A DNA stretch of 64,000 nucleotides, from sequence record PZ049338.1; one strand, given 5' to 3'. Under the pieces are notes generated by a model. The model saw only the letters and a list, made by a program, of their open reading frames with translations, searched no databases and was not told the DNA's origin. This document shows, piece by piece, positions 32,524 through 52,534 of the stretch. The DNA comes from a phage. A program made the position numbers and the translations under genes. The number at the start of each line of letters is the position of its first letter. The first letter of the stretch is position 1.

Positions 32524-32583
32524 TATTCCACACCTGCAATTAATGTTACTGTATATTTACGACCACCTCTAACATCTTCAACC

Positions 32584-32988
32584 TTAGTTACAATACCTTC
32601 CATTATGATTCCTTAATCGGTAATAAATTGCGGATTCAGTTCTGCCCAATCGTGCAGCTATAGTTTTAACAGGAACACCTGCTCTCCACATCTCAAAGCA
32701 ATCGTCATGACTTTCTCTGTAACGATTTACGTTTGTTTCAGTAGCATGTTCAGAGCCTTCAAGAATTTCAAGGTGTTCTGGGTTACAGCAAGCCCTGTTC
32801 CTGCATTTGTGATTAATCTCACAACCTTCAGGGATTGAGCCGTTAAGTTCTTCCCACACTAACCTGTGGTACATCACCCAAGTATTTTTACCAATATTCT
32901 TGCGGAAGTACCCATCACTGTTAAGTTTATGAGAAACGGGGATTTTACACCCCGTATTAGTAATATCAAATACAAGTTTCTTTGGCAT
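32584..32988 (-). CDS. HNH homing endonuclease directly downstream of DNA polymerase gene
   Basis: HRLVWEE...EINHKCRNRACCNPEHLE motif plus C-terminal HTH; ATG 3 nt after polymerase stop. Confidence 0.6.
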   Translation of the reverse strand: MPKKLVFDITNTGCKIPVSHKLNSDGYFRKNIGKNTWVMYHRLVWEELNGSIPEGCEINHKCRNRACCNPEHLEILEGSEHATETNVNRYRESHDDCFEMWRAGVPVKTIAARLGRTESAIYYRLRNHNGRYCN

Positions 32989-32990
32989 AT

Positions 32991-34835
32991 TCAATGGGTA
33001 TGGAACCAGCTTGCACCAAGCATTGAGTCTGAAGCTAATGGACATTCCATATTCAACGACTCTCCAGCTTTTTTAACACACTGGTCAATCAACTCTCTTA
33101 ATTTAACTACATCTTTGGTGGCGCAAGTGAACTGCATCTCATCGTGCATCATAATGACCTGATTTGCAAACAGCTTATCACGTTTAACCCAAGAAATCAG
33201 GTAGCAGTCAGCAATCTTCATAACAATAGAACCAGCAGACTGGAGCATTGTATTCAGTGCTTTATGGGTCATCACCTCACCGGAGTTAGGGTCACGACGC
33301 ATAATCAACTTACGACCATCAATAGCTGGAACCCAACCATGTTTCGCTGCGAATGTTTGTACCCACTCCATAAGAACTGGAATACAAGGACATTCTTTCA
33401 GGAACTTATCACGAGCTTCCTGACCTTCGGCAACACCACCACCTAACTGAGCACCTAAGTTCGCATTACCAGCGCCATAGAGGAAAGCATAGATAAACGT
33501 CTTAGCCTGCTTACGAGTTGCTAGACCTGCAAGCTTCTGGTTGTGCGAGTGGATATCACCATTCAGAAGAACTTCACGATACTCTAGAGCGGAGTCGAGT
33601 GCTTTCTGATAATACTCAGCCTCTCGTGTCTTACCAGCTTCGAGAGCTTCCTCAAGCAGCATACGAGATACAGCAATGAGGTAGTGAGTAAGCATACGAA
33701 GTTCAAGACCTGCACCATCCCCACCTACGAAAGCCTGTTGGCCCTCTGGGATAAGGTATGTACAGTGTCCTACATCTTCCCACTTCTTACCATTGAACTC
33801 CTGCATGATGTTAGTCAGTGGCTTACGACGAAACTTGCCAGACTCAATCATTTTCTTGGTGAGCTTAGGAACCAGAATGCCACGACGACCCATCTCAGAG
33901 TCACAGTAGTCACCCTTAAATAAGTGACGACATTCTTCACCCAGCAACGCACCAGCAGCAGGAATGTTAACAATTGTCTTGTGACGCATACGAGCAGTTG
34001 GTGTAGCGCATGGGTTGGCTTCACCAGACAGCTTACCATCAGCACGTACTTGAGCAATCAAACCTTCTAAGAGGGAACGACGATGCGCAAGCTGCATACG
34101 ATGCTTCAAGAGCGTCAATGCCTGACTCTCATCCTCACCAACTGAATCAAAAGAATCATCAGTGATTTGTGGAGAAGTCGGCCAGAACTGTTTCAGTAGA
34201 AGTTTCTTCTTAATGGCATCGAAGTTAGGAACCTTTCTGCTCAGGTCGAAACCTAAAGCAACCAGAATTGCCTTCATGTAACCCTTCGTCTGGTCACGGA
34301 AGTGTGTATCAATAAACCCGTTAACAGCGTTGGTGAATGCAAGTCTGTCCTCAGAATCACACTGTTCATTGATGAACTTAGCGTATGAGGTTTTCTCCAA
34401 ACGTTTGCGATACTGCCAAACTTGGAAAGGTGTCTTCTTCTCGTTCCACTCAGTAGGAACCCAACCCATATCCATCATGACTTTCTTCAGTCGAGATGTT
34501 TTACCAGGGTCGAATGGTGTATACCATACAGCGGAGAATGGCCCACTAACATCTTCAGAAGAGAGTCCATGAATGTCCATGTACTTCTGAACGAATGCTT
34601 TAGGTTGACCGTTCAACTTAAACGGAGCTTTATACTCTGAACCCTTGTGCATCATAGGAGGAAGCAAAGGGATTAATTCGAGGTCAATCTTGAGGATACG
34701 CTCATTCAATGAGTGAACCAACCAAGAAGCACCACGCTTATCAAAGTTACAGCCATGTTTCCACTGATTCGAAATCAAATCAGCGACTTTCTGTTCTAAC
34801 AGGAATGGTTTAGTCCAATCCGGCTTGATATCCAT
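32991..34835 (-). CDS. DNA polymerase, family A (T7 gp5-like) polymerase domain only
   Basis: Motif B RKQAKTFIYAFLYGAG, motif C MMHDEMQF, GAGLELRMLTHY; lacks the 3'-5' exonuclease domain. Confidence 0.85.
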   Translation of the reverse strand: MDIKPDWTKPFLLEQKVADLISNQWKHGCNFDKRGASWLVHSLNERILKIDLELIPLLPPMMHKGSEYKAPFKLNGQPKAFVQKYMDIHGLSSEDVSGPFSAVWYTPFDPGKTSRLKKVMMDMGWVPTEWNEKKTPFQVWQYRKRLEKTSYAKFINEQCDSEDRLAFTNAVNGFIDTHFRDQTKGYMKAILVALGFDLSRKVPNFDAIKKKLLLKQFWPTSPQITDDSFDSVGEDESQALTLLKHRMQLAHRRSLLEGLIAQVRADGKLSGEANPCATPTARMRHKTIVNIPAAGALLGEECRHLFKGDYCDSEMGRRGILVPKLTKKMIESGKFRRKPLTNIMQEFNGKKWEDVGHCTYLIPEGQQAFVGGDGAGLELRMLTHYLIAVSRMLLEEALEAGKTREAEYYQKALDSALEYREVLLNGDIHSHNQKLAGLATRKQAKTFIYAFLYGAGNANLGAQLGGGVAEGQEARDKFLKECPCIPVLMEWVQTFAAKHGWVPAIDGRKLIMRRDPNSGEVMTHKALNTMLQSAGSIVMKIADCYLISWVKRDKLFANQVIMMHDEMQFTCATKDVVKLRELIDQCVKKAGESLNMECPLASDSMLGASWFHTH

Positions 34836-35565: not shown

Positions 35566-35922
35566 TTAATCCTTCTTCTTCTTGCTCTTAGGCTTGCTCA
35601 CAGGTAAACGGGACTTAGCGCCCTTACGTCCACCTGCGGCCTTACCTTTTGAGCTACCAGACTTACCACCAGCAGACATATTCTCGCTGGCATCACGTAA
35701 ACGCAAATTACTGCGGTCATTGGAGCCACCATCTTTAACTGTCTTCTTGTGGTCAACGTGTACAGATGTTGGCAATTTTCTACCGATGCTCTTTTCCATC
35801 TCTCGACGGGCACGGTGTCGCATTGCATCCTTAGACTTCTTACCAACGCCGGTATCACCACGCTTTATAGCAGTGATACGTTCTTGTGCGTAGTTTCGTA
35901 CATAACCCGGTGAACTAGGCAT
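35566..35922 (-). CDS. Small basic HNH-family nuclease
   Basis: VHVDHKKTVKDGGSNDRSNLRL HNH signature; GGAGG SD. Confidence 0.5.
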   Translation of the reverse strand: MPSSPGYVRNYAQERITAIKRGDTGVGKKSKDAMRHRARREMEKSIGRKLPTSVHVDHKKTVKDGGSNDRSNLRLRDASENMSAGGKSGSSKGKAAGGRKGAKSRLPVSKPKSKKKKD

Positions 35923-35934: not shown

Positions 35935-36150
35935 TTAATCAGAGCATGAACGGGTGACCCCTCGCTCTCCAACTGGTGCGCGTTCTTTTGCTTGCCAGTC
36001 TTGTGCGAGTTTTTGATAATTCTCAGCTTCTTCCACATTGCCATTTGCATATGCTTCATCACGCATTGAAAAACACCAGTCAACCGTTGATGCGTTACTC
36101 TTGTCCATTATAATCACCCCATTCGTATTCATATTCGTCGAAACGTTCAC
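35935..36150 (-). CDS. Hypothetical acidic protein (71 aa)
   Basis: ORF; preferred over overlapping 35865-36083 ORF. Confidence 0.3.
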   Translation of the reverse strand: MNVSTNMNTNGVIIMDKSNASTVDWCFSMRDEAYANGNVEEAENYQKLAQDWQAKERAPVGERGVTRSCSD

Positions 36151-36265
36151 CCGGCATTGTTTCTTTACAACACGGGCATATGTAATAGTGTGAATAGTCC
36201 TCAGTGCTTACGCGTTTCATGGGAACAAAACACCAATCACATTCAATACTTTTCACACCGTACAT
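36095..36265 (-). CDS. Small zinc-ribbon protein (~56 aa)
   Basis: CDWC...CPCC; internal ATG at 36265 with AAGGTA SD avoids overlap with upstream gene. Confidence 0.3.
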   Translation of the reverse strand: MYGVKSIECDWCFVPMKRVSTEDYSHYYICPCCKETMPGERFDEYEYEWGDYNGQE

Positions 36266-36275
36266 AATGAATACC

Positions 36276-36545
36276 TTATTTAAGACTCTTCTCAACTCTA
36301 CGAGTAATATACTCACGAGCTACTTTAGGATTACATTCCATTAAGAGGTCTTCAACATCTTCGTTGATTTCACTCTTCGTTACAGTTAACTGATGAAGAT
36401 ACTTACCCTGAATAATCATTGCAATCTGCAGAGCTTCATCAAAACTTGATTGATTGACAGCCTCTTGTGAGGCCATAACTGATTGGATGATTTGGTTTAC
36501 ATCAAATTCAACCAAGGAGCCATCATCTTTCTGATATTTTACCAT
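36276..36545 (-). CDS. Hypothetical protein (89 aa)
   Basis: ORF. Confidence 0.35.
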   Translation of the reverse strand: MVKYQKDDGSLVEFDVNQIIQSVMASQEAVNQSSFDEALQIAMIIQGKYLHQLTVTKSEINEDVEDLLMECNPKVAREYITRRVEKSLK

Positions 36546-36553
36546 TCACTACC

Positions 36554-37003
36554 TCAGCGACCAGAGCGTACAAAGTATGCCAGCTTGTCGATGGCAGCTA
36601 CTAATTCTTGCAAGATGCTAACAGTCACATCATCCTCTGTATCAAACAGACGAGCCACATGACCAGTTATTGTTTCCAGAGTTTCGACCATATCAGACAA
36701 CATCTCTGAACTGTCGTAGCTGTCAACACCTTCACTGAACCAGCGAACTTCATGATAATACCCTGCCGTTGATTTGACAGGATGCTGTAGGCCACGTAGC
36801 CGCTCAGCAACAATATCAGACCATTCATCAGCAACAGTATCAATATCTTCGAACAGTTTATGGAGACTTCCAAAGTTGGCTCCGGTTACGTTCCAATGAT
36901 AATTCTCTGCCTTGATGGACAGTAATTTGAGGTTGGCAACCACTGGATTCAATGGGTGCAGATTATCTTCACCACTTTGACGTGACGGTCTTGGAGATAA
37001 CAT
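36554..37003 (-). CDS. Dps/ferritin-like protein
   Basis: HWNVTGANFGSLHKLFEDI...DIVAERLRGL resembles Dps family ferroxidase/DNA-binding signature. Confidence 0.5.
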   Translation of the reverse strand: MLSPRPSRQSGEDNLHPLNPVVANLKLLSIKAENYHWNVTGANFGSLHKLFEDIDTVADEWSDIVAERLRGLQHPVKSTAGYYHEVRWFSEGVDSYDSSEMLSDMVETLETITGHVARLFDTEDDVTVSILQELVAAIDKLAYFVRSGR

Positions 37004-37659
37004 TACTCAGTTTCCTTAATAGTTGCTTTCAAGGCCGACCAAGCGACCGGATAAAGGTCAGTCATGATTGCATCAAGTTGCTGTGCAAACAAACGAACCT
37101 CGTATTGAGCATGAGTGCTCGAACGTTGACGGTATACTTCAAACCAACCATACAGTGAACCAGTCCATACCCATTCTGTAACCATCCCTTGCGGGAGTAC
37201 AAAGCGAGCCTGCTCTGGTGCAATGAACTTAATCAGCTTATCGTAGGCAAGTAATGCTGCTTCATATGCGTAATTATACAACACAAGAGCTTCATATTTC
37301 TTAACACCTTCAAGAAGTACACCACCGCCATCATGCAAGTTATCAGGTCGTGCAAAGATTTCCTTAGGAATGAACACTTCGACATTACCATCTTTATATC
37401 GACGGCTCATTTCGTTCCAAGAAAATCCAACCTGATGCTTACCTAGCTGGCGAGCGATTGCGATTGGGGCTTTACAGCGAAGGGTCACTGTTGCGTGCCG
37501 GAATGGGGTTACATGACGTTCACGAGCTAAGAACTTGACCAAGCGAACATCTCGCTCATTCAACTCACCTTCTCGTGTTACACCATAAGATACTCGTGCT
37601 GCGTTAACAACTGAAGTATCATCACCCATTAAATCTACTAATTGCGCTTCAATAGTCAT
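37003..37659 (-). CDS. ThyX-like flavin-dependent thymidylate synthase homolog (non-canonical motif)
   Basis: AARVSYG N-terminal and QLGKHQ...S...SRRY region resembling the ThyX RHR-x-S motif with RHR replaced by KHQ. Confidence 0.45.
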   Translation of the reverse strand: MTIEAQLVDLMGDDTSVVNAARVSYGVTREGELNERDVRLVKFLARERHVTPFRHATVTLRCKAPIAIARQLGKHQVGFSWNEMSRRYKDGNVEVFIPKEIFARPDNLHDGGGVLLEGVKKYEALVLYNYAYEAALLAYDKLIKFIAPEQARFVLPQGMVTEWVWTGSLYGWFEVYRQRSSTHAQYEVRLFAQQLDAIMTDLYPVAWSALKATIKETE

Positions 37660-38468: not shown

Positions 38469-38684
38469 TTATTTACCCCAATGTTCAACAAACTGTTGAA
38501 ACACTTTACGGTCGAATGTGAAATTACGAGCAATATTACATTCAACAAAAGTAGAGCCCATATAGTCTATAGACAATTCATCAGTGTGACCGTGAACTTG
38601 GATAAGGCGTTTAATCTTATCCTTCTCCTTCCGAGGTAACATACGGAATGCTTCCTGTATGTCTGTAATATGCTTAATTTTCAT
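38469..38684 (-). CDS. Hypothetical protein (71 aa)
   Basis: ORF. Confidence 0.3.
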   Translation of the reverse strand: MKIKHITDIQEAFRMLPRKEKDKIKRLIQVHGHTDELSIDYMGSTFVECNIARNFTFDRKVFQQFVEHWGK

Positions 38685-38950
38685 CAGCGAGTCTCTTCTA
38701 AGTCTCGGTTAACACCCACATTACCATCAAGGTTAGCCTGCACTTGAGCAGAAATAACAATCAGGTTCTTAGGGTAGGAGAGGGTTGTTTTACCAGAGCT
38801 AAGCACATGGATTCGAACTTTCAGAGGAGTAACATCCACAACTCGGGCTATTTCTAGCCCTTGGTTGTATTTACCATTACCCCAGACAACAATATCGTCC
38901 AGTCGAATCACCCGGTGCAGCTTATCACGGTGATTGTGTGACAGTAACAT
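38684..38950 (-). CDS. Hypothetical protein (88 aa)
   Basis: ORF. Confidence 0.3.
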   Translation of the reverse strand: MLLSHNHRDKLHRVIRLDDIVVWGNGKYNQGLEIARVVDVTPLKVRIHVLSSGKTTLSYPKNLIVISAQVQANLDGNVGVNRDLEETR

Positions 38951-39240
38951 TAATCAAGACCTCGCACTGTAGAGAGGATGAAATTACGCAGCATGTCTTC
39001 AGTCTGCATCCCTGTTTTGAAACCTACTGGCTTCTTGTTTTCATCAAACACGATGATGGTTGGGACACCACGGATGCCAAAGGTACGAGCTTCTTCGCGT
39101 ACTCCGTCGTCTTCGATGCTACGGGATTCAAAAGTAAATCCCTCTTCTTCCAGTTCATCTTGAACTTTCTTGAAGATAGGCTCGATTGCTTTGCAAGGAG
39201 CACAGGAAGTACCAAAGTATTTAATTACAGAGTAAGCCAT
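38950..39240 (-). CDS. Thioredoxin-like protein (CAPC active site)
   Basis: GTSCAPCK active-site motif and GVPTIIVF cis-Pro loop region. Confidence 0.65.
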   Translation of the reverse strand: MAYSVIKYFGTSCAPCKAIEPIFKKVQDELEEEGFTFESRSIEDDGVREEARTFGIRGVPTIIVFDENKKPVGFKTGMQTEDMLRNFILSTVRGLD

Positions 39241-39998
39241 TATTCACCACCTTCGTTGTCTAATTCCATTGCTTTAACCACTGCCTTACAGAAGCCGCTT
39301 CGAACGATATCGTCAGAAGTACCTTCAACAACAGCAGCATAGTCGCCCAGAGCGTGACGGTTGATAAAATCAATCGCCCAATCCAGACCATTTTCACCAC
39401 CCATATCATTCTGCTCGGAATCCCCGATACAGAACAGCTTAGAGTTCTCACCCAAGCGAGTCATGATTGAGTACATTTCATCAGGTTTGGTATTCTGAGA
39501 TTCATCCACAATGACCACAGCGTTCTCGAAAGAACGACCACGAACATATTCCAGTGGTACGAATTCAATGTTACCAAGACCCATCTGGCACTCATAGAAG
39601 CCATGACCGTAACGACCTTTGATTACATCTACCATAGGCATCAGATACGGTTCAAACTTCTCTTTCAGAGTGCCGGGCAGGAGACCAAGAGATTTACCCA
39701 TACCAACCGAAGGTCGGCTCAGTACAATCTTCTGAATCTTGTTCTGCTTAAGCCAATCTGCGGCTTGACTCATGAGTACAAAAGTCTTACCGCAACCAGC
39801 AGGAGCGTCAACAAACACAACCTGAGCTTCCATCATGCTAGTATGAAGTTCACGTTGGAACTCATTCTTAGGGATGATAGGCTTGATAATGTTTGCTGTC
39901 TCAAACTCACGACGAGCGTGTTGGCTATTACGACGAACAGTTTCTTCGCGCAGTGCTTCACGACGTAATTCACGACGACTAGGCTTAAGTTTCTTCAT
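39240..39998 (-). CDS. phoH: PhoH-like ATPase
   Basis: Walker A DAPAGCGKTF and PhoH-like downstream motifs. Confidence 0.75.
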   Translation of the reverse strand: MKKLKPSRRELRREALREETVRRNSQHARREFETANIIKPIIPKNEFQRELHTSMMEAQVVFVDAPAGCGKTFVLMSQAADWLKQNKIQKIVLSRPSVGMGKSLGLLPGTLKEKFEPYLMPMVDVIKGRYGHGFYECQMGLGNIEFVPLEYVRGRSFENAVVIVDESQNTKPDEMYSIMTRLGENSKLFCIGDSEQNDMGGENGLDWAIDFINRHALGDYAAVVEGTSDDIVRSGFCKAVVKAMELDNEGGE

Positions 39999-40602
39999 TA
40001 TTCAACTCCTCAGTGTGACCAGAGCCAGCATATGCTTGAGTAGCACCCTGCTGACCGTTGTAGTTACCTTTAACAGCGTAAGAGTCGTTACCAACGTCTT
40101 CGTGTTCAAAGAATACCATCTGACCAATGCGCATACCGGGTTTGATAAGGAGTCGGTGATACTTGTTCATATTCTTGAACTCCATAGTAAGCTGTGCGCC
40201 ATGCCAACCGGCATCTGCCCAACCTGCCATCATGTGTTCAAGGAAGCAACGAGCCACTGTAGAACGTAATACAAACTGACTGGAGATAGTATTTGGTAAG
40301 TTAAATGTCTCAACAGAGTGAGCCAAGAAACACTGACCCGGTTCGATAATCAAACCAGTCTCAGGGATAATCTGTTTGATGAACTTAGGAGATTGCTTTG
40401 CAGCAATATCAATCGGTTCAGAATGAACACCCGGAACAGCTTCAGCCATACCAGAAAGGTCTTGGTATTGCCATGCAGGGGCTTCGACCAGAATCTCGTT
40501 ACCAATACGGATATCAATACTCGCTGAGTTTACGTTCTCATGCAGAGCGTCAATAACATTTTCATCAATCAGTTGGTGCAATCGTGTAGAAGAGAGTAAC
40601 AT
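39985..40602 (-). CDS. dCTP deaminase / dUTPase-superfamily enzyme
   Basis: AGWADAGWHGAQLTMEF motif typical of dCTP deaminase family. Confidence 0.55.
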   Translation of the reverse strand: MLLSSTRLHQLIDENVIDALHENVNSASIDIRIGNEILVEAPAWQYQDLSGMAEAVPGVHSEPIDIAAKQSPKFIKQIIPETGLIIEPGQCFLAHSVETFNLPNTISSQFVLRSTVARCFLEHMMAGWADAGWHGAQLTMEFKNMNKYHRLLIKPGMRIGQMVFFEHEDVGNDSYAVKGNYNGQQGATQAYAGSGHTEELNNEET

Positions 40603-40785: not shown

Positions 40786-41283
40786 TTATTTGTAAAAGAT
40801 TCTGCTATGTGGAGGATTCAACCAATCAAATCCAGCCAGATTGCAAAGATGCTCATACAAAGCAACGGTAACATTTACGTCCTGCTCACAGTAAGTGAAC
40901 ATGTCTTCAGTGAACACATCCCAAGCATTCTCTGTCTTGCCATAATCGCCTTTATAGATACCAAGCTCACGACCCCATGAATCCAGTGAATGACCACCGG
41001 GGCGGTCAGGCTGGAGCATACGGCTGAGAACTAAGGTATCAAAGGTGTTCATGTGGAATTCAAGACCACTGAGTTTAGCCAGAGTCGGGAGGTCATAATC
41101 AATGATGTTATGGCCAACCGTTAAATCGAAGGACATTAAATCCTTCATATACTTGTCTAAATCTTGTGGTCTATAACCCTGTCGCTCTTTCGGTTGACTA
41201 GGGTCAATAATCCAGGCACAGTGAAATTTGGAGACATCAATATAGAGATTGTTAGTCTCTATATCTGTACAAGCAATCTTCAT
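40786..41283 (-). CDS. DNA polymerase 3'-5' exonuclease domain (T7 gp5 N-terminal homolog), separately encoded
   Basis: Exo I DIETNNL, Exo II VGHNIIDYDLPTL, Exo III YCEQD; N-terminus closely parallels T7 DNA polymerase. Confidence 0.8.
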   Translation of the reverse strand: MKIACTDIETNNLYIDVSKFHCAWIIDPSQPKERQGYRPQDLDKYMKDLMSFDLTVGHNIIDYDLPTLAKLSGLEFHMNTFDTLVLSRMLQPDRPGGHSLDSWGRELGIYKGDYGKTENAWDVFTEDMFTYCEQDVNVTVALYEHLCNLAGFDWLNPPHSRIFYK

Positions 41284-41292: not shown

Positions 41293-43089
41293 TTAGAATG
41301 GTCGACTATCATCACGACTGACTTCATCAGAGTCAGGCTCCTCTCCCGGGATAGAGAAAGGATTCTTAGGGTCATACTCATCAGCAGTACGCTGTCTCAA
41401 TCGACCTGTAACTGGGTTATAGGAAGTTGGGACAATACCTGTCTGACCGAAGTTACGGTCTTTCAGGAGACGAATCTGAGACAAGTTACGAGCATCACCA
41501 TCTGCCTGCTTGTTACGCTCAAAGCCCAGAATTAACTGGGAGAATCGCATAAGAGCACGCGAACCTGTGAACTGCACTTCCTGAACCTGACCACCTTCCT
41601 CGTGCGGAGCACCAGTTTTAGGTGGGTTCAAGTGACTGAATACGAAACATGTGAACTCCAGTTCGTTACACAGTCCAGCCAGTTCTACAGCAATACGAGC
41701 AACTTCGGTGTTAATCTCAGTCGCTGATAAGTGTGATACCAGTGCGGTGATGTTATCTAAGAAGATGAACTTCACACCATGCTCCACAACCCAGAAACGC
41801 ATACAGCGTTTGATATCTTCCCAATCATTCTGACCAAAGTTCCGGTAAAGGAACAGATGGCCATCATACTTCAGAGCTTCACTCTTAAGCAGTTCAGGGT
41901 CGAACTCAACATCTGGGCGATGGAAAGGTATATTAGCAGATTTACCTGCGATGTTTTTGATTGTGTTACCTACAGTCTCTTCCAACATGAAAGCGCCCAC
42001 TTTCTCTTTGTGGACGTTAATGAGGTGAGCACTAAGTTCGTGAGCAAGCAGTGTTTTACCACCACCCACACCACCACCAATTGCAATCACTTCACCATAT
42101 CGGAGACCGAAGGTTAACTCTGTAAGACCTTCCCAAGGGAATGATAAACCCCACTCAGGCTTCTTCAGCGCATCTTCCAGACACTCAGCTACAGTCGTTG
42201 AGCCAGCCGGAGATTCTTTTGCAGCATTGAAGCGTAAGCAGTTATTAAGTTCGAGGTCACGACCGTCCATGAGGAGGTCATTAGCGTCCTTAATTGGAGC
42301 ACCATCTTTACGGAACCCTTTAGGGATTCGGGCAATCTTAATGTTCGGATACATCGCTCGAATCTTGTTCACAGCATCATCACCAGCTTCATCGTTATCC
42401 ATGCAGACAACAACTTCAGCGAATGATTCTACGAATGCACGGTCACGAGAGAACGCAGCCGCTGCTGATTTCGAGCCATCCGGTAAAGAAACACATGCTG
42501 GTTTGTATGTACTCTTAGAGTTCTCTGTCAATACCTGAAAACCAGACATTGCACTGAGTTCGTCTTCAAATACAAACAACTTACCTGTGTACACATCACC
42601 AAGACGTGCTTGGGACATACCGAAGAAACTACAACCTGATGCTGCACCTACAGCATAAAAACCTTTAGGTTCTAAGGTGCGAACTTTGTAAGCACGGATT
42701 GCTCCGTCCTTTTCCTTCGGGTAAAACTGAGAGATAGGTTCCCGGTTAGTGGATGAAAGACCAATACGAACACCAAAACGTTCGGCAACTTCTTTCTTCA
42801 CACCACGAATGGTGCAGTTCTGAATAGGAAGCTCTTGGACTTCCGCTAAACGTTCTTGTACTTCTTCCTCGGTCAGTTCACGGAATTCATGACGAACTCC
42901 TTCCCACTTCTCGCGGTTACCTTCTTCAACCTGTTCGTAAAAACCATCACGACTACAGTAAACCCACTGCTCGCCGGTCTCAACATTTTCCCAATGCTGA
43001 AGATGGTTGCCAGTTCGGTCATGGCCTGCTGCCGTACAGGTTGGACATGCAGAATCACCAAGGATTCTTTTGTTTCCATAAACTTTCAT
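41293..43089 (-). CDS. Primase-helicase (T7 gp4-like)
   Basis: N-terminal zinc finger CPTC...C, TOPRIM region, DnaB-type Walker A GGGVGGGKT; acidic C-terminus ending RPF. Confidence 0.85.
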   Translation of the reverse strand: MKVYGNKRILGDSACPTCTAAGHDRTGNHLQHWENVETGEQWVYCSRDGFYEQVEEGNREKWEGVRHEFRELTEEEVQERLAEVQELPIQNCTIRGVKKEVAERFGVRIGLSSTNREPISQFYPKEKDGAIRAYKVRTLEPKGFYAVGAASGCSFFGMSQARLGDVYTGKLFVFEDELSAMSGFQVLTENSKSTYKPACVSLPDGSKSAAAAFSRDRAFVESFAEVVVCMDNDEAGDDAVNKIRAMYPNIKIARIPKGFRKDGAPIKDANDLLMDGRDLELNNCLRFNAAKESPAGSTTVAECLEDALKKPEWGLSFPWEGLTELTFGLRYGEVIAIGGGVGGGKTLLAHELSAHLINVHKEKVGAFMLEETVGNTIKNIAGKSANIPFHRPDVEFDPELLKSEALKYDGHLFLYRNFGQNDWEDIKRCMRFWVVEHGVKFIFLDNITALVSHLSATEINTEVARIAVELAGLCNELEFTCFVFSHLNPPKTGAPHEEGGQVQEVQFTGSRALMRFSQLILGFERNKQADGDARNLSQIRLLKDRNFGQTGIVPTSYNPVTGRLRQRTADEYDPKNPFSIPGEEPDSDEVSRDDSRPF

Positions 43090-43156: not shown

Positions 43157-43831
43157 TTACAGAGTGTCATAGTAGTCTGCGCGATTATGCAGACACCAGT
43201 CACCCGACTCAACACGGTTACTGTCGCCTTGGTCTTCATCAATGTGATAAATCCAAGCCTTTGCGAAGGAACCATCATCCAGTTGGATTTCAACCTGCGT
43301 ACGGTTATAGAAACCATTCTCAGGGTCACAGGCACTGTACCCTTCCAGCATGTCGTATGCACCAGTCAGACCTTCCAGAGGTGCTTCAAATACATCAACA
43401 ACAACCTGCTTGCCAGACTTGTTAGCCTTAAGGTTCACGGAAGGGAAGTAGGAGCCACCGTAGCGATATAAATCGAACTGGTCTACAGTCACACCCTTAC
43501 TTACAAATTCACCGCCGCCACGAGCGTTTACGTGGAAATTCTGCATGTTGCGACGCAGAGAGCCATAAGTTGCGATGAATACTTTACCGTCTGAAGGAAT
43601 TACTAAGTTCTTTGACATTACTTGTCCTGTTTTAGGTTGTAGATAATATTTAACTTCGACAAATCGCCATGTGTTCTGGAGGTTCTCTGCCATTTCTTTT
43701 GCTTCTGGGTAAGTTAAGCCACAGCCAAGCTGATAACCTTCCTCACCCTTACTCATGCGACCAATCAGTAAATAACGAACTTCATGGTCACCTGTTAGTG
43801 GTTCTTTAATTGAGAGCTTCATCTTATACAC
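43157..43831 (-). CDS. GGCT/AIG2-like (gamma-glutamyl cyclotransferase fold) protein
   Basis: YGSLRR motif characteristic of AIG2/GGCT family. Confidence 0.45.
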   Translation of the reverse strand: MYKMKLSIKEPLTGDHEVRYLLIGRMSKGEEGYQLGCGLTYPEAKEMAENLQNTWRFVEVKYYLQPKTGQVMSKNLVIPSDGKVFIATYGSLRRNMQNFHVNARGGGEFVSKGVTVDQFDLYRYGGSYFPSVNLKANKSGKQVVVDVFEAPLEGLTGAYDMLEGYSACDPENGFYNRTQVEIQLDDGSFAKAWIYHIDEDQGDSNRVESGDWCLHNRADYYDTL

Positions 43832-43887
43832 TTCTCACCCCTTGTTATGTTCGACAAAGGCCACTCCGAAGAATGACCTTTAGCAAA

Positions 43888-44424
43888 TTACCAGAGCTTA
43901 TTAAGAGCCAGATTATTAGTAATCACTGGTGTGCTTTCGTAATCATCCAGAGATGTTGGGCCCATACTAATAGCACCATATCCAGTTACGTGAACACTTA
44001 CACGGGTCATCTGGTCGAAGAATTCCTTCATCTGAGACGGTTCTGTGATGTTCTTTCCAGCAACACCAAGAACCTGTACACGCTGACCAGAGGAGCGCAG
44101 ACCCTTCTTAGTGACCACTGCCGTAACTGTCTGACCAACAACAGTGGGCTTAGTTAATACCTCAAAGAACACACCGGATATGTCAGTTACACCCTGTTCC
44201 ATATGCATTGTTGCATAGTTAACTTTGTAGGTGTTTGGAACTTCATATACACGGGTAGATTTGAAAGTAGTACCAATGTAGTTATCTGCATTGAAGTCAC
44301 GGGAACGGCTACGACGTTCAGCCTCAATGAGAAGTGATTGGTAATAACCTTCCAGTATTTCACCAACACCTTTACGAGTTGTACTTAACCCGATTACTCG
44401 GGAATATCCAATAATTAAGAACAT
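43888..44424 (-). CDS. Hypothetical protein (178 aa)
   Basis: ATG 8 nt downstream of conserved 22-bp promoter-like motif. Confidence 0.45.
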   Translation of the reverse strand: MFLIIGYSRVIGLSTTRKGVGEILEGYYQSLLIEAERRSRSRDFNADNYIGTTFKSTRVYEVPNTYKVNYATMHMEQGVTDISGVFFEVLTKPTVVGQTVTAVVTKKGLRSSGQRVQVLGVAGKNITEPSQMKEFFDQMTRVSVHVTGYGAISMGPTSLDDYESTPVITNNLALNKLW

Positions 44425-44432
44425 TAAGAATC

Positions 44433-44454
44433 TCTCTTTATATATGTGGATTAA
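44433..44454 (-). promoter_or_regulatory. Copy B of conserved 22-bp promoter-like motif
   Basis: Reverse complement GTTAATCCACATATATAAAGAG followed by AGATTCTTAATG (start codon). Confidence 0.35.
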
Positions 44455-44457
44455 CTA

Positions 44458-44997
44458 TTACAATTTCTGAGTCACTGTTTCGTAGGTGGTTACTACCTTT
44501 TTCTTCTTCTCAGTGATACCGGAAAGAAGTGCCCAATAGAAACGACCGCCATGACGTTCAGCCATCTCAGCAGCAATCTGCTCTGCCTTCTCAGCAGTTT
44601 CCACCACTACGCGAGGTGGACGAGATGATTCAGGACACCACAAGATATACTTACCGAGGTTCTTATCTTTAGGAGAAGCCTTGGCTTCCGCTTTAGCTGT
44701 CTCTTGGGTAGCAGTAGAACTTTCACCCAAATCGTTGAGACGCCATGTATACAAGGCAGTACCTGATAGTAGGGTCAGTCGGCTACGAATGATGAAGCTG
44801 GTTGGTCGCTGATTCAACTGTATAGAATACAATTGACGACCATGCTTGTCAATTAAGCACACTTCCCAACGACCCGGATATAACAAGTAGATTCCAATAG
44901 TGTACATGAACCTATTACCAATACGAGCCTCTGCACGGTCATGGTCATGGAAGTTGAAGTTAACAGAAGAGGGGATGTGGATTAACTTCTTAGACAT
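44458..44997 (-). CDS. Hypothetical protein (179 aa)
   Basis: ORF. Confidence 0.4.
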   Translation of the reverse strand: MSKKLIHIPSSVNFNFHDHDRAEARIGNRFMYTIGIYLLYPGRWEVCLIDKHGRQLYSIQLNQRPTSFIIRSRLTLLSGTALYTWRLNDLGESSTATQETAKAEAKASPKDKNLGKYILWCPESSRPPRVVVETAEKAEQIAAEMAERHGGRFYWALLSGITEKKKKVVTTYETVTQKL

Positions 44998-45203
44998 TAT
45001 TTACCAACCTTAGTTACGCTTTCAACAAGAGCATAAGGGAATGCGGCTTGCAATTCCATGTGACCTGCCTTACCACCAATAGTCTTGTTCTCAATGAAGA
45101 TGTAGAACTTGTAGTGGTGAGGGTCAATCTGAACCATTGTTGCAGGAATGATTTTATCCGCAGAGTCAAGAAGTTTTACACGATATTTAATAATCTCAGC
45201 CAT
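44997..45203 (-). CDS. Hypothetical protein (68 aa)
   Basis: ORF. Confidence 0.3.
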   Translation of the reverse strand: MAEIIKYRVKLLDSADKIIPATMVQIDPHHYKFYIFIENKTIGGKAGHMELQAAFPYALVESVTKVGK

Positions 45204-45207
45204 TTCT

Positions 45208-45477
45208 TTAATCCCAGTTAGGTTGGAGGTCTTTCATTGCGAAGTCACGTACTTCACCACGTTCACGGCAAACAGCTTTTACGAACCACTGTTCACCTTC
45301 ATGGTACTCAGAGATACCATACCAAATATTGATTGGTACAATAGTGCGCTCTGCTGTTTCACCGCGCCAGTTAGTGTAGGTCACACGGTGTGGTACTTGT
45401 AGAACTAATAACTTTGGTCGTGCTGTTTCAGAAGGGACTTTCGTCGTCATAATCTTCACCGTAGACAATAGAATCAA
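45208..45477 (-). CDS. Hypothetical protein (89 aa)
   Basis: ORF. Confidence 0.3.
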   Translation of the reverse strand: MILLSTVKIMTTKVPSETARPKLLVLQVPHRVTYTNWRGETAERTIVPINIWYGISEYHEGEQWFVKAVCRERGEVRDFAMKDLQPNWD

Positions 45478-45703
45478 TGAACGCTTGATGTTTTGCCAAC
45501 TTCTTTTTCATGAGTTTGTTGTGGACTTGAAGAATATTAGAGACCTCTTTGGTGACAGTCACATGAGGTACAGCAACACCTTCAGCGAATTTTAGTCGCT
45601 TAAAGGGAGCGACAAGGTAAATGAACTTAGCAACTTCAGTGTTGTTTCGTAAATTTACCTCTTCCCCATTAGTTAACTTATAATACACCCAGAGATTCCA
45701 CAA
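45428..45703 (-). CDS. Small protein ending in SSB-like acidic tail DYDDESPF
   Basis: C-terminal motif resembling the SSB C-terminal tip. Confidence 0.35.
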   Translation of the reverse strand: MWNLWVYYKLTNGEEVNLRNNTEVAKFIYLVAPFKRLKFAEGVAVPHVTVTKEVSNILQVHNKLMKKKLAKHQAFIDSIVYGEDYDDESPF

Positions 45704-46865
45704 TAATTACATCGTTAGTTGTAACCATGATTTCCCAGCCAGCCAGTTCGAACATACCACCGGTGAATACACCTACGTTACGAACATCATCGTTACGCAT
45801 CTGAACGATGTAGATGCCGTTTTCAACCAAGCGAATTGGTTCCTGACGCGTCACAGTAGCTGTTACCTCTGCTTCGATAGCGAAGTTTTCATCTTCAGCA
45901 GCTTCTACTGCATTGTCTGTGGCAGTCTGGTTCTGAGTTACAATGTCAACCAGTTCCTGAGCGGCAGCGTTACCACGAACGATTGCTGCTTGCAATTCAC
46001 TGTTGGTGTTCACTTCATTTTGCAATTCAGCCAGAGCTTCATTAATATCTTCGACAGCATAAACTTCCTGACCATTGAAGATTGCCATTACGTTGGCTGC
46101 AAAACGTTCTGCGTTAGAACCGGTCATACCCGGAGCAGTGTTAACTTCCAGTACCCACGCTTCATCACGACGAGTAATGAGGTCAACTGCACCGTAGTCC
46201 AGACCCAGAGCAGCGATTGCTTTCAGGGCTTCACGCTTAGCTTCTTCATTAGGCTCAGCCTGCTGAGTTGCATAAATCCAACCAGTGTGGTGATTTCGGA
46301 TAATATCACTGTATTCTGGCAGGTCAGCGTAACCGTTCACACGCTTCTTCTGCTGAATGTTAGTGATAACACCATTCATCACATGGATGCGGTATTCACG
46401 ACGCTGAGCATTAACACCCTTGGTGTAAAGCTGTGCATTAGCCAGAGTACCTTGAACACCATCACCGAAAAGCTCTTCGTTGTTGGTTGCAATCACAATG
46501 CCTTCACCAGAGTGTCCAGAAAGGCGTGTACGGCAATAAACCAGATGACCTGCATCAAGCCATGACTGAGCTTCTTCACGGTCTGTAGTGTACTCTACAG
46601 TCTTCACATCATTGCGACGGAATACTTCGAAAGAGATACGTTTGTTGGTCGCATTACCAACGTTGTACGGGTTGTTCAGGATGCGGGCATTGCCGATGAT
46701 TTCGGCAGATAGGGAGGATGAACCGTAGTTGACAATTAAGTCACCACTGCGACCACGGAAGCGAGAGCCATCAGTCAGGAGACGAAGTGCTCCCGGCATT
46801 AAAGGCATGAGTTCGTTCAGGGTGTCAGAAGGGCCATTTGAATATACACGTAAGCGAGGTGCCAT
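45678..46865 (-). CDS. ATP-grasp ligase (RimK/glutathione-synthetase-like)
   Basis: Flexible loop RTRLSGHSGEGIVIA, EYRIHVMNG, DYGAVDLITRRDEAWVLEVNTAPGM matching ATP-grasp motifs. Confidence 0.75.
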   Translation of the reverse strand: MAPRLRVYSNGPSDTLNELMPLMPGALRLLTDGSRFRGRSGDLIVNYGSSSLSAEIIGNARILNNPYNVGNATNKRISFEVFRRNDVKTVEYTTDREEAQSWLDAGHLVYCRTRLSGHSGEGIVIATNNEELFGDGVQGTLANAQLYTKGVNAQRREYRIHVMNGVITNIQQKKRVNGYADLPEYSDIIRNHHTGWIYATQQAEPNEEAKREALKAIAALGLDYGAVDLITRRDEAWVLEVNTAPGMTGSNAERFAANVMAIFNGQEVYAVEDINEALAELQNEVNTNSELQAAIVRGNAAAQELVDIVTQNQTATDNAVEAAEDENFAIEAEVTATVTRQEPIRLVENGIYIVQMRNDDVRNVGVFTGGMFELAGWEIMVTTNDVIIVESLGVL

Positions 46866-46907
46866 TGTTGTTACCTTTTCAGTGGGTTGTTGGAAATCAA
46901 TATTATA

Positions 46908-46927
46908 AGAGGCTCCGAAGAACCTCT
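46908..46927 (-). terminator. Intergenic UUCG-tetraloop hairpin (weak terminator or processing site)
   Basis: On - strand AGAGGTTC-TTCG-GAGCCTCT; downstream tract only moderately U-rich. Confidence 0.3.
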
Positions 46928-46938
46928 GAAATATGGAC

Positions 46939-47178
46939 TTAAGCGGCCATCAATGCGATGAGTTTGCGGTTTTCATTCCTGAGAGCACCAATCTCATCAT
47001 CAATAAGACTGTAGTGGTACGATAACATTTGGAGGGACATTTCACCTACATCTGAGGCAGTCATCTGCTCGACGTAAGTTGCCTTCTCCTCAATCAGCCG
47101 TCCAATGTCTTTGTTGTTTTGTGCTATTAAATCCATCGCCTCTTTACGAGCAGCTCTTGCGACTTCATTATCAGCCAT
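46939..47178 (-). CDS. Hypothetical protein (79 aa)
   Basis: ORF. Confidence 0.3.
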   Translation of the reverse strand: MADNEVARAARKEAMDLIAQNNKDIGRLIEEKATYVEQMTASDVGEMSLQMLSYHYSLIDDEIGALRNENRKLIALMAA

Positions 47179-47402: not shown

Positions 47403-47417
47403 ATTCTCATTTACCTA

Positions 47418-49409: not shown

Positions 49410-49465
49410 GGATAATAATCCTCTAAGTTCATTTAAATGGGGCCGAAGCCCCTGTTTGTTAATAC

Positions 49466-52514: not shown

Positions 52515-52534
52515 TTCGTTTTCCTTAAAGAGGG

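What the first reader, a model, noticed from the sequence alone, without database searches (positions are those of the whole stretch)
38950..39240. Phage-encoded thioredoxin with CAPC active site next to a T7-type replisome
T7 DNA polymerase uses host thioredoxin as its processivity factor. Here a thioredoxin with an altered CAPC motif is encoded in the replication block, which suggests the phage supplies its own processivity subunit or redox partner for the split polymerase. No ribonucleotide reductase is seen in the window to explain it otherwise.
Basis: partly seen in the sequence, partly recalled or inferred. Interest (0 to 1): 0.45.

Follow-up and report, generated by a model that had tools for sequence, protein, structure and literature searches.

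The report
Phage thioredoxin in nucleotide-supply module
This is a real, conserved thioredoxin gene of a 7-11/phiEco32-type enterobacterial phage that is already annotated in relatives; its gene neighbourhood ties it to DNA-precursor supply more than to the T7-like polymerase, and the idea that it clamps the polymerase is already published, untested and not favoured here.

Summary
ORF 38950-39240 (-) encodes a 96-aa thioredoxin with a C13-A-P-C16 site: Pfam E=1e-12, AF2 pLDDT 93, 1.3 Å rmsd to E. coli TrxA, dN/dS about 0.08.

The window is about 97% identical to phage PKM.Lu.22.1 (Grimontviridae). It has a T7-type replisome with a split family A polymerase. No RNR is encoded in the window, and none is annotated in the near-identical complete genome.

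The polymerase subunit does carry a shortened insertion (about 55 aa, against 76 in T7) at the position of the T7 thioredoxin-binding domain. Its last third is homologous to T7's. However:
- The same loop occurs in LUZ24, which has no thioredoxin (about 100 further Pseudomonas phages share this polymerase), and in Aeromonas phage APT65, which lacks the orthologue.
- The thioredoxin travels with the dNTP genes (dCTP deaminase, PhoH, ThyX, Dps-like).
- In relatives it abuts nrdA or lies near nrdD.
- Here an 89-aa stand-alone ATP-cone ORF (36276-36545) is the relic of a lost nrdD.

The most likely role is a redox-active thioredoxin feeding ribonucleotide reduction, now by the host enzyme. The processivity-factor idea was published in 2021 for these phages and remains possible at about 0.2. 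The finding is ordinary and already annotated.

The parts
38950..39240 (-). Thioredoxin gene, 96 aa. It has the minimal Trx fold and lacks strand beta1 and helix alpha1 of E. coli TrxA.
   Evidence: ORF; Pfam PF00085 E=1e-12; PHROG 22; AF2 pLDDT 93.4; closest PDB structures are E. coli TrxA, rmsd 1.3 Å; dN/dS 0.08 against phage 7-11.
39193..39204 (-). Active-site codons C13-A14-P15-C16. They are preceded by Ser, not the canonical Trp.
   Evidence: Translation. CxPC is invariant in the 25 short homologues aligned, with A/G/M/V at the variable position.
39061..39063 (-). Pro60, the equivalent of the cis-Pro76 of E. coli TrxA, within R-G-V-P-T.
   Evidence: Alignment with TrxA; invariant column in A4.
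39240..39998 (-). PhoH-like ATPase. Its stop codon overlaps the Trx start codon (TAATG).
   Evidence: Pfam PhoH E=2e-54; junction sequence.
38684..38950 (-). Conserved 88-aa protein of unknown function. Its start codon overlaps the Trx stop codon (TAATG).
   Evidence: PHROG 10984 E=1.5e-35. Adjacent to Trx in 7-11, ECO319P1 and IMG/VR loci. Still present in APT65, where the Trx is missing.
39985..40602 (-). dCTP deaminase, part of the dNTP module.
   Evidence: Pfam DCD E=6e-33.
37003..37659 (-). Flavin-dependent thymidylate synthase ThyX, part of the dNTP module.
   Evidence: Pfam Thy1 E=6e-42.
36554..37003 (-). Dps/ferritin-like protein. In relatives it always lies directly upstream of nrdD.
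   Evidence: Pfam Ferritin E=8e-10; PHROG 3636; synteny in ECO319P1 and APT65.
36276..36545 (-). Stand-alone ATP-cone ORF of 89 aa, the N-terminal relic of a class III RNR gene (nrdD) at the syntenic position.
   Evidence: Pfam ATP-cone E=1e-8. 48% identity to aa 1-86 of ECO319P1 NrdD, E=1e-25. PHROG 487 (NrdD) positions 4-95 and its own PHROG 36488. Intact in 7-11 at 71% identity in the codon alignment (73% by BLASTP), with dS saturated. No other NrdD remnant in the window.
32991..34835 (-). Polymerase (palm, fingers, thumb) subunit of a split T7-clade family A DNA polymerase, 614 aa.
   Evidence: phmmer against T7 gp5 E=6e-36; hhalign E=1.6e-53; AF2 pLDDT 90; best PDB fold matches are all T7 gp5.
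34500..34679 (-). Insertion between thumb helices H and H1 (aa 53-112), at the position of the T7 thioredoxin-binding domain but about 20 aa shorter. It contains G98-P-F-S101, which aligns with T7 A324-P-Y-T327.
   Evidence: Alignments with T7, Klenow and Syn5. F100 is invariant and G98 and P99 are at least 90% conserved in 63 homologues. Modelled as strand-helix-strand at pLDDT about 90.
34167..34424 (-). Mostly helical insertion of about 86 aa after helix H1 (aa 138-223), absent from T7, Klenow and Syn5 polymerases.
   Evidence: helices 143-214 in the AF2 model.
40786..41283 (-). Separate 3'-5' exonuclease subunit of the polymerase, 165 aa.
   Evidence: Pfam DNA_pol_A_exo1 E=5.5e-7; annotated as exonuclease subunit in 7-11 and LUZ24.
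41293..43089 (-). T7 gp4-type primase-helicase with an acidic C-terminal tail ending in Phe.
   Evidence: Pfam DnaB_C and Toprim_2; C-terminus EEPDSDEVSRDDSRPF.

Best explanation
The gene encodes a redox-active, minimal thioredoxin that belongs to the phage's middle-gene module for dNTP supply (dCTP deaminase, PhoH, Trx, orf88, ThyX, Dps-like, ATP-cone).

Proposed mechanism: host thioredoxin reductase and NADPH reduce the C13/C16 pair. The reduced protein then delivers electrons to ribonucleotide reductase, raising dNTP output during phage DNA synthesis. In this lineage the phage's own class III RNR gene has been lost, leaving only its ATP-cone as a separate ORF, so the client must now be a host enzyme. 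The most plausible client is class Ia NrdAB; helping to keep host NrdD activatable under anaerobiosis is a second possibility.

Shown: the fold, the CxPC and cis-Pro conservation, purifying selection, operon coupling, membership of the module, adjacency to RNR genes in relatives, and loss of nrdD.
Inferred: redox activity, reduction by host TrxB, and the identity of the client.
For: 1. It is a genuine thioredoxin. The model superposes on E. coli TrxA at 1.3 Å. CxPC, cis-Pro and the Gly92 equivalent are kept in all 25 short homologues aligned, while the residue between Cys and Pro drifts among A, G, M and V. dN/dS is 0.08.

2. It sits in, and is translationally coupled into, a nucleotide-metabolism block. 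The same block (dCTP deaminase, orf88, Dps, Trx, ThyX, PhoH) is conserved with shuffled order in Kuravirus.

3. The gene tracks the module, not the replisome. LUZ24 has polymerase (39% identity), exonuclease subunit and primase-helicase (47%) but lacks Trx together with the whole module.

4. Where relatives carry RNR genes, the small thioredoxin lies next to them:
- IMG/VR loci L016 and L017 have a 77-aa CAPC thioredoxin whose end overlaps the start of nrdA-nrdB.
- APT65 has lost the syntenic Trx but has a 76-aa WCQAC thioredoxin directly downstream of nrdB-nrdA.
- ECO319P1 has the order Trx-orf88-Dps-nrdD. The protein numbering in PMC7881722 suggests the same order in Privateer; this was not checked directly.

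5. The window's ATP-cone ORF is the relic of that nrdD.

6. Precedent: cyanophage Syn5 thioredoxin is redox active, boosts genome replication, and is judged more likely to serve RNR than the polymerase (bioRxiv 10.1101/2025.10.05.680603).

7. The SU10 orthologue is detected as protein (PMC4281155).
Against: - This phage and all Kuravirus phages keep the thioredoxin under strong selection although they encode no RNR. The host already has TrxA, TrxC and glutaredoxins, so the benefit of an extra reductant is not obvious.
- The nrdD of the relative ECO319P1 is the formate-dependent type (C175, M382, C384 and G681 of E. coli NrdD are conserved at 58% identity; formate as reductant per PMC4493059). 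Adjacency to nrdD is therefore weaker evidence than adjacency to nrdA.
- The active site lacks Trp31 (Ser here) and the buried Asp26 (Lys here), which may lower classical thioredoxin activity.
- All replication and dNTP genes are clustered, so context cannot cleanly separate 'polymerase partner' from 'dNTP enzyme'.
- No biochemical data exist for this family.
Confidence: 0.5

Rival explanations
1. Dedicated processivity subunit. The phage thioredoxin docks, independently of redox chemistry, on the shortened TBD-like loop of the split T7-clade polymerase (around G98-P-F-S101). This would stabilise the thumb over the primer-template as E. coli TrxA does for T7 gp5, and would free the phage from dependence on host trxA. 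This is the first reader's reading, and the hypothesis published for Privateer and other C3-morphotype phages.
For: - The polymerase is T7-clade.
- It has an insertion of about 55 aa at the TBD position, which Klenow lacks.
- The last third of the T7 TBD is recognisably conserved, and F100 is invariant in 63 homologues. From memory (Johnson and Richardson 2003, not verified here), that T7 segment includes T327, which lies against Trx Cys32.
- The Trx surface residues R57-G-V-P60 and G77 (TrxA R73-G-I-P76 and G92) are conserved.
- Trx is present in every enterobacterial member of the polymerase family, whether or not it has an RNR (PMC7881722).
- The primase-helicase has a T7 gp4-like acidic tail ending in Phe.
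- T7 is very specific for its thioredoxin (PMC8010470), so a co-evolved phage copy is conceivable.
Against: - The same loop and the GPF[ST] motif are kept in LUZ24, which has no thioredoxin gene, and in APT65, which lacks the orthologue. A further ~100 Pseudomonas phage records carry this polymerase, and none appears among the thioredoxin hits by organism name.
- The loop is about 20 aa shorter than T7's, the T7 basic-loop region is not alignable, and the loop is modelled as an ordered strand-helix-strand element within a larger thumb subdomain at pLDDT about 90.
- Split T7-like family A polymerases with shortened TBDs failed to dock host thioredoxin in AlphaFold2 (PMC10201439).
- Both cysteines are invariant, although T7 processivity does not need them (from memory).
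- Kuravirus orthologues have Ser at the TrxA Gly74 position; from memory, G74D abolishes T7 support.
- Thioredoxin homologues also occur in T5-like and N4-like phages that do not have this polymerase.
- The gene is 4.1 kb from the polymerase subunit gene and is co-translated with PhoH, not with a replisome gene.
Confidence: 0.2
2. General redox housekeeping or stress protection rather than a specific link to RNR or the polymerase. Together with the neighbouring Dps/ferritin-like protein, the thioredoxin would keep phage or host proteins reduced, or limit oxidative damage, during infection. This is the 'stress response' reading used in some annotations.
For: - Trx and the Dps-like gene are both universally conserved in C3-morphotype phages and lie close together (PMC4281155).
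- No dedicated client is encoded in this genome.
- Several small neighbouring ORFs have CxxC zinc-ribbon-like motifs.
Against: - It does not explain why the gene abuts nrdA in distant relatives.
- It does not explain why the gene is lost together with the dNTP module in LUZ24.
- No peroxiredoxin, methionine sulfoxide reductase or other antioxidant client was found.
Confidence: 0.15
3. Dual function. The protein both reduces RNR and binds the polymerase, as host TrxA does in a T7 infection.
For: E. coli TrxA does both jobs (established knowledge; PMC7881722). None of the evidence above is mutually exclusive.
Against: This is the less parsimonious reading. The phyletic pattern gives no independent support for the polymerase-binding half.
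Confidence: 0.1

Closest known systems
Orthologous phage thioredoxins: Salmonella phage 7-11 gp079, phiEco32 'thiol-disulphide isomerase and thioredoxin' (YP_001671810), SU10 gp65, Privateer QIN94863; PHROG 22
   Same: Same family and same CAPC site. Identity is 99% to PKM.Lu.22.1, 72% to 7-11 and about 40% to Kuravirus and ECO319P1. The dNTP-module context is the same.
   Different: Nothing of substance. In PKM.Lu.22.1 the gene is merely labelled 'hypothetical protein'.
E. coli thioredoxin 1 (TrxA), the RNR reductant and T7 gp5 processivity factor
   Same: Same fold (rmsd 1.3 Å, TM 0.83). CxPC, cis-Pro76, R73-G74 and G92 equivalents are present.
   Different: Only about 26-28% identity. It lacks the N-terminal beta1-alpha1 (about 20 aa). 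Trp31 is Ser, Gly33 is Ala, and Asp26 is Lys.
Cyanophage Syn5 thioredoxin (gp25)
   Same: A small phage thioredoxin encoded inside a T7-like replication block. The same two hypotheses (RNR reductant or polymerase processivity factor) have been raised for it.
   Different: Syn5 encodes its own RNR (gp33 and gp34), whereas this phage does not. The two sequences are not detectably close. The Syn5 motif is CGPC.
T7 gp5 thioredoxin-binding domain (TBD)
   Same: An insertion at the identical position between thumb helices H and H1. The C-terminal part is homologous: SGPFSAVWYTPFDPGK aligns with GAPYTPVEHVVFNPSS.
   Different: It is about 55 aa rather than 76 aa. The N-terminal two thirds, including the T7 basic loops, are not alignable. 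It is predicted to be ordered. It is accompanied by a further 86-aa insertion after H1. The polymerase is split from its exonuclease domain.
Phage T4 NrdC (thioredoxin/glutaredoxin) and NrdH redoxins
   Same: Small phage-encoded or RNR-associated CxxC redoxins that donate electrons to RNR (established knowledge).
   Different: Those proteins are glutaredoxin-like in sequence (CVYC, CVQC) and accompany a phage or cognate RNR. This protein is closest to classical TrxA and has no phage RNR partner.

Membership tests
Thioredoxin (Pfam PF00085 / thioredoxin fold) | Sequence match above the curated family threshold | tested here: met
   48.4 bits against a cut-off of 23.5, E=1e-12; PHROG 22.
Thioredoxin (Pfam PF00085 / thioredoxin fold) | Thioredoxin fold: central beta-sheet flanked by helices, with CxxC at the N-terminus of helix 2 | tested here: met
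   The AF2 model (pLDDT 93.4) has strands E3-9, E35-41, E61-65, E71-76 and helices H14-31, H47-53, H81-93. It superposes on TrxA at 1.3 Å. It lacks the extra N-terminal beta1-alpha1 of classical TrxA.
Thioredoxin (Pfam PF00085 / thioredoxin fold) | Two redox cysteines in a C-x-P-C motif, plus the cis-proline loop | tested here: met
   C13-A-P-C16 and P60; invariant in the 25 short homologues aligned.
Thioredoxin (Pfam PF00085 / thioredoxin fold) | Canonical W-C-G-P-C motif with Trp31, and the buried Asp26 | tested here: not met
   The motif is S-C-A-P-C, and Lys7 aligns with Asp26. These are features of classical TrxA, not of the fold family as a whole.
Thioredoxin (Pfam PF00085 / thioredoxin fold) | Disulfide-reductase activity and reduction by thioredoxin reductase | not testable with these tools
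   Needs an enzyme assay.
T7-type thioredoxin-dependent DNA polymerase holoenzyme | T7-clade family A polymerase | tested here: met
   phmmer E=6e-36; hhalign E=1.6e-53; the top 27 PDB fold matches are all T7 gp5.
T7-type thioredoxin-dependent DNA polymerase holoenzyme | A TBD insertion of about 76 aa between thumb helices H and H1 | tested here: inconclusive
   An insertion is present at that site but is only about 55 aa. The last third is homologous and the rest is not alignable. It is predicted to be ordered. PMC10201439 reports that only about 29% of T7-like family A polymerases have a TBD of at least 50 aa, and that split ones have a halved TBD.
T7-type thioredoxin-dependent DNA polymerase holoenzyme | Co-inheritance of the loop with the proposed thioredoxin partner | tested here: not met
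   The loop is conserved in LUZ24, which has no Trx, and in APT65, which lacks the orthologue. Use of a host Trx there cannot be excluded.
T7-type thioredoxin-dependent DNA polymerase holoenzyme | Physical 1:1 complex and thioredoxin-dependent processivity | not testable with these tools
Biochemistry is needed.
RNR-coupled phage redoxin (NrdC / NrdH / phage Trx) | An RNR encoded by the same genome | tested here: not met
   There is no RNR in the window or in the near-identical complete genome; only an nrdD-derived ATP-cone ORF remains.
RNR-coupled phage redoxin (NrdC / NrdH / phage Trx) | Gene adjacency to RNR genes in related genomes | tested here: met
   L016 and L017: a CAPC thioredoxin overlaps the start of nrdA. 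APT65: a mini-thioredoxin lies next to nrdA. ECO319P1: Trx lies 0.77 kb upstream of nrdD.
RNR-coupled phage redoxin (NrdC / NrdH / phage Trx) | Ability to reduce an RNR (host NrdAB) | not testable with these tools
   Needs an enzyme assay.

The most novel reading that the evidence does not exclude
The phage thioredoxin has replaced host TrxA as a dedicated, co-evolved processivity subunit. It would dock on the shortened TBD-like loop (aa 53-112) of a three-gene (polymerase, exonuclease, Trx) T7-clade polymerase holoenzyme, making these phages independent of host trxA. The related, wider reading is that Trx and the orphan ATP-cone together form a module for taking over the host RNR.
Probability: 0.2. 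Interest if true: 0.55.

Novelty: already known. Interest (0 to 1): 0.25.

Why it matters
If the favoured reading holds, this is one more auxiliary gene for nucleotide metabolism. It would show that phages with no RNR of their own can still invest in boosting the host's ribonucleotide reduction.

If the rival reading held, it would be the first virus-encoded thioredoxin processivity factor, and a natural three-part version of the T7 polymerase holoenzyme. That would interest people who study replisomes and polymerase engineers.

Either way the question is cheap to settle experimentally. [quoted passage not shown]

Tried and rejected
- **First homologue search.** The word-index search with the thioredoxin found only 2 proteins. 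A profile search was needed.
- **T7 T327 / Trx Cys32 contact.** I tried to verify this in the held literature. A search for T327C found nothing, and PMC2581573 is not held. The point rests on memory.
- **Host-factor data.** A search linking trxA to Kuravirus or phiEco32 phages found nothing.
- **ATP-cone ORF against PDB sequences.** No hit at E below 0.01.
- **'The CAPC motif is a meaningful alteration': rejected.** The middle residue drifts (A, G, M, V) within the family. The more notable departures from TrxA are the missing Trp31, the missing Asp26 and the missing N-terminal beta1-alpha1.
- **'An RNR lies outside the window': rejected.** The window spans all but about 3.6 kb of the genome, and the near-identical complete genome has none annotated.
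- **'The relative's NrdD is a thioredoxin-dependent class III enzyme': rejected.** It has the E. coli-type C175/M382/C384 residues of the formate-dependent enzymes.
- **'The ORF after the ATP-cone (36095-36316) is the NrdD C-terminal zinc ribbon': rejected.** It shows no similarity to NrdD.
Full report
**Observation**

Codons 13-16 (nt 39193-39204) read C-A-P-C.

Several lines show it is a real gene:
- It matches Pfam Thioredoxin at E=1e-12, 48 bits against a cut-off of 23.5, and PHROG 22 'thioredoxin domain'.
- An AF2 model built on 31 homologues has pLDDT 93.4 and beta-alpha-beta-alpha-beta-beta-alpha topology.
- The closest solved structures are E. coli TrxA and its mutants, at rmsd 1.3 Å and TM 0.83.
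- Against the phage 7-11 orthologue, dN is 0.22 and dS about 2.9, so dN/dS is about 0.08.
- A GAAGGTGGTG Shine-Dalgarno sequence precedes the ATG.
- The gene is joined by TAATG stop/start overlaps to the PhoH gene upstream and to a conserved 88-aa ORF downstream.

Relative to E. coli TrxA, the protein lacks the first 20 or so residues (beta1-alpha1). It has Ser for Trp31, Ala for Gly33 and Lys for Asp26. It keeps Pro40, R73-G74-x-cisPro76 and Gly92.

**What the window is**

The window is collinear with phage PKM.Lu.22.1 (Grimontviridae, 76.4 kb) and about 97% identical to it. It is more distantly related to Salmonella phage 7-11 and to the Kuravirus (phiEco32) phages. It covers record positions 3590-76396, so only about 3.6 kb of the genome lies outside.

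The - strand from about 21.8 kb to 64 kb carries the early and middle genes. Around the thioredoxin, in transcription order:

| Coordinates | Gene |
|---|---|
| 41293-43089 | primase-helicase |
| 40786-41283 | family A polymerase 3'-5' exonuclease subunit |
| 39985-40602 | dCTP deaminase |
| 39240-39998 | PhoH |
| 38950-39240 | Trx |
| 38684-38950 | orf88 |
| (between) | five small ORFs |
| 37003-37659 | ThyX |
| 36554-37003 | Dps/ferritin-like |
| 36276-36545 | ATP-cone ORF |
| 35566-35922 | HNH endonuclease |
| 32991-34835 | polymerase subunit |

. The description 'T7-type replisome with split polymerase' is therefore correct. The thioredoxin sits in the nucleotide-metabolism block that separates the two halves of the polymerase.

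**Is there an RNR?**

No RNR catalytic gene is in the window. This rests on a Pfam scan of all - strand ORFs of at least 90 aa from 21.8 kb to 63.7 kb, plus several shorter ones near the gene, and on tblastn with NrdD. None is annotated in the complete PKM.Lu.22.1 genome either.

- It is 48% identical (E=1e-25) to residues 1-86 of the 707-aa NrdD of Escherichia phage ECO319P1, which belongs to the same family.
- It hits the N-terminus of the NrdD PHROG.
- It lies at the syntenic position. ECO319P1 has the order dCTP deaminase, Trx, orf88 homologue, Dps-like, nrdD. Aeromonas phage APT65 has dCTP deaminase, orf88, Dps-like, nrdD.

The 7-11/PKM lineage has therefore lost the catalytic body of its class III RNR and kept the ATP-cone as a separate ORF. 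That ORF is intact in 7-11 (71% identity in the codon alignment, 73% by BLASTP; dS saturated). Its K-R-D-G nucleotide-binding motif has degenerated, to KDDG here and ARQG in 7-11.

The 614-aa polymerase subunit is T7-clade: phmmer E=6e-36, hhalign E=1.6e-53, and the top 27 PDB fold matches are all T7 gp5. Alignments with T7 gp5, Klenow and Syn5 polymerase give the following picture:
- Klenow runs directly from helix H into the F-N-L-S-S motif of helix H1.
- T7 inserts its 76-aa thioredoxin-binding domain (TBD) at that point.
- This polymerase inserts about 55 aa there (aa 53-112).

The C-terminal third of the insertion is clearly homologous: SGPFSAVWYTPFDPGKTSRLKK aligns with T7 GAPYTPVEHVVFNPSSRDHIQK. 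F100 is invariant and G98 and P99 are at least 90% conserved across 63 homologues. From memory (Johnson and Richardson 2003, which I could not verify in the held literature), T7 T327 in this segment lies against Trx Cys32.

The N-terminal two thirds, which in T7 carry the basic loops, do not align. AF2 models the region as an ordered strand-helix-strand element at pLDDT about 90. It is packed together with a further insertion of about 86 aa, mostly helical, that follows helix H1 (aa 138-223) and is absent from T7, Klenow and Syn5.

Czernecki et al. (PMC10201439) report three relevant points. Split T7-like family A polymerases have a TBD shortened by about half. AlphaFold2 failed to dock host thioredoxins on one of them. 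phiKMV-like polymerases carry an unrelated insertion after H1.

The sequence test is therefore half positive: a degenerate TBD is present.

**Does the thioredoxin go with the polymerase or with the dNTP genes?**

- *Distribution.* The polymerase family occurs in 240 phage records: Pseudomonas 101, Escherichia 95, Aeromonas 11, Proteus 8, Salmonella 7, Cronobacter 6 and others. Homologues of the thioredoxin occur in 250 records: Escherichia 99, Klebsiella 77, Salmonella 17, Achromobacter 9, Proteus 8, Cronobacter 6 and others. The Klebsiella records are about 110-kb T5-like phages and the Achromobacter ones about 73-kb N4-like phages. No Pseudomonas or Aeromonas group appears in the organism names listed for that search, which shows only the ten commonest.
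- *LUZ24.* It has the polymerase subunit (39% identity, including the loop), the exonuclease subunit and the primase-helicase (47%). It has no thioredoxin, PhoH, dCTP deaminase, ThyX, Dps-like gene, orf88 or RNR, even at E=10.
- *APT65.* Its polymerase is 61% identical with the same loop. It has dCTP deaminase followed directly by orf88, with no Trx at that site. It does carry a 76-aa WCQAC mini-thioredoxin immediately downstream of nrdB-nrdA.
- *IMG/VR loci L016 and L017.* An unsplit T7-like polymerase is followed by a 77-aa CAPC thioredoxin whose end overlaps the start of nrdA-nrdB, and then by PhoH and ThyX.
- *Kuravirus.* The order is exonuclease subunit, dCTP deaminase, orf88, Dps-like, Trx, ThyX, PhoH, polymerase subunit, with no RNR (PMC7881722).

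The thioredoxin is therefore inherited and lost with the dNTP module, and it sits beside RNR genes whenever these exist. The TBD-like loop, by contrast, is conserved regardless of whether the thioredoxin is present.

Among the 25 short homologues aligned, both cysteines and the cis-proline are invariant, while the middle residue of the motif varies among A, G, M and V. 'CAPC' as such is therefore not a meaningful alteration, and the pattern is what is expected of a redox enzyme.

**Caveats on the RNR link**

ECO319P1 NrdD is 58% identical to E. coli NrdD and keeps C175, M382, C384 and G681. It is the formate-dependent type (PMC4493059), so its catalysis does not need thioredoxin. From memory, thioredoxin has been reported to help activate E. 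coli NrdD (Padovani et al. 2001). This is weaker support than the nrdA adjacency.

Kuravirus and the 7-11/PKM lineage keep the thioredoxin under strong selection with no phage RNR at all. [quoted passage not shown]

The only experimental study of a phage thioredoxin found here concerns Syn5 (bioRxiv 10.1101/2025.10.05.680603). It found redox activity and a replication benefit. AlphaFold3 docked the host thioredoxin, but not the phage thioredoxin, on the polymerase. The authors favoured RNR reduction.

**Conclusion on mechanism**

Estimated weights for the four readings:

| Reading | Weight |
|---|---|
| Redox-active thioredoxin of the dNTP-supply module | about 0.5 |
| Dedicated processivity subunit on the degenerate TBD | about 0.2 |
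| General redox or stress role, with the Dps-like protein | about 0.15 |
| Dual role | about 0.1 |

In the favoured reading, host TrxB reduces the protein and it donates electrons to RNR, which here must be the host enzyme because the phage's nrdD has been lost. I could not model the complex, so the decisive test remains undone.

**Comparison with what is known, and novelty**

The gene is an orthologue of thioredoxins already annotated in 7-11 (gp079), phiEco32, NJ01, SU10 and Privateer. The SU10 orthologue was detected by mass spectrometry (PMC4281155). The near-identical PKM.Lu.22.1 copy is deposited, though labelled hypothetical.

The finding is a correct but ordinary annotation, with a published, open functional question attached. 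What this analysis adds is modest:
- The mapping of the degenerate TBD.
- The phyletic argument that the thioredoxin follows the dNTP and RNR genes rather than the polymerase.
- The recognition that the orphan ATP-cone ORF is an nrdD relic.

Noticed in passing
window 36276-36545 (-): A stand-alone 89-aa ATP-cone ORF that is the N-terminal relic of a class III RNR gene (nrdD). It is 48% identical to aa 1-86 of ECO319P1 NrdD and lies at the syntenic position after the Dps-like gene. It is kept intact in 7-11 (71% identity in the codon alignment, 73% by BLASTP; dS saturated), but the KRDG nucleotide-binding motif has degenerated to KDDG here and ARQG in 7-11. It forms its own PHROG 36488, of unknown function. 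It could be a neofunctionalised regulator or decoy acting on host NrdR or RNR; this was not tested.
   Followed up: partly
window 38684-38950 (-): A conserved 88-aa protein of unknown function (PHROG 10984), translationally coupled (TAATG) to the thioredoxin stop codon. It is adjacent to Trx in 7-11, ECO319P1 and L014, and near it in Kuravirus. It is retained next to dCTP deaminase in APT65, where the thioredoxin is absent.
   Followed up: partly
window 34167-34424 (-), polymerase aa 138-223: A confidently modelled, mostly helical insertion of about 86 aa after thumb helix H1. It is absent from T7, Klenow and Syn5 polymerases and shorter in LUZ24-like ones. Its position is the same as that of the unrelated insertion described for phiKMV-like family A polymerases. 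It could itself contribute to processivity.
   Followed up: partly
window about 41293-41340 (-), C-terminus of the primase-helicase: The primase-helicase ends in an acidic tail with a terminal Phe (EEPDSDEVSRDDSRPF). This resembles the T7 gp4 tail that binds the polymerase (resemblance recalled from memory).
   Followed up: no
window about 9896-9902, compared with OQ829281.1 13245-22205: Compared with the 97%-identical PKM.Lu.22.1 genome, the window lacks an 8.96-kb block of tail and structural genes, including a 778-aa protein and the 962-aa 'tail formation protein'. This could be a natural deletion variant, a module swap or an assembly artefact.
   Followed up: partly
window 32584-33045 (-) and 35566-35922 (-): Two HNH endonuclease genes flank the polymerase subunit gene. 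The one at 32584-33045 largely falls in a 470-bp segment (window 32525-32995) that is absent from PKM.Lu.22.1, which is typical of homing-endonuclease mobility. The nrdD body may have been lost in such an event.
   Followed up: no
window 43157-54628 (-): A cluster of gamma-glutamyl cyclotransferase, ATP-grasp (RimK-like), class II glutamine amidotransferase, amidoligase and phiEco32-type COOH-NH2 ligase genes. It is shared with phiEco32, 7-11 and LUZ24. Its function is unknown; peptide or metabolite ligation, or a DNA modification, have been suspected. The BASEL paper notes unexplained resistance of Gordonclarkvirinae phages to restriction-modification systems.
   Followed up: no
window 36554-37003 (-): A Dps/ferritin-like protein that lies directly upstream of nrdD (or of its ATP-cone relic) in this phage, 7-11, ECO319P1 and APT65, and near the thioredoxin in Kuravirus. 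It is reported as one of the few genes common to all C3-morphotype phages. Its role is unknown.
   Followed up: no
window 27998-28567 (-) and 57119-57871 (-): A phage sigma-70 family (ECF-like) factor, as known for phiEco32 and 7-11, and a 250-aa protein with a ProQ/FinO RNA-chaperone domain (Pfam E=3.6e-9).
   Followed up: no
L006 (ECO319P1) 15296-16911: In the relative ECO319P1, nrdD is followed by two ORFs that look like a macro domain and an RtcB RNA ligase (judged from the sequences only). No nrdG was seen in the fetched 24 kb, so the activase may be elsewhere in the genome or supplied by the host.
   Followed up: no
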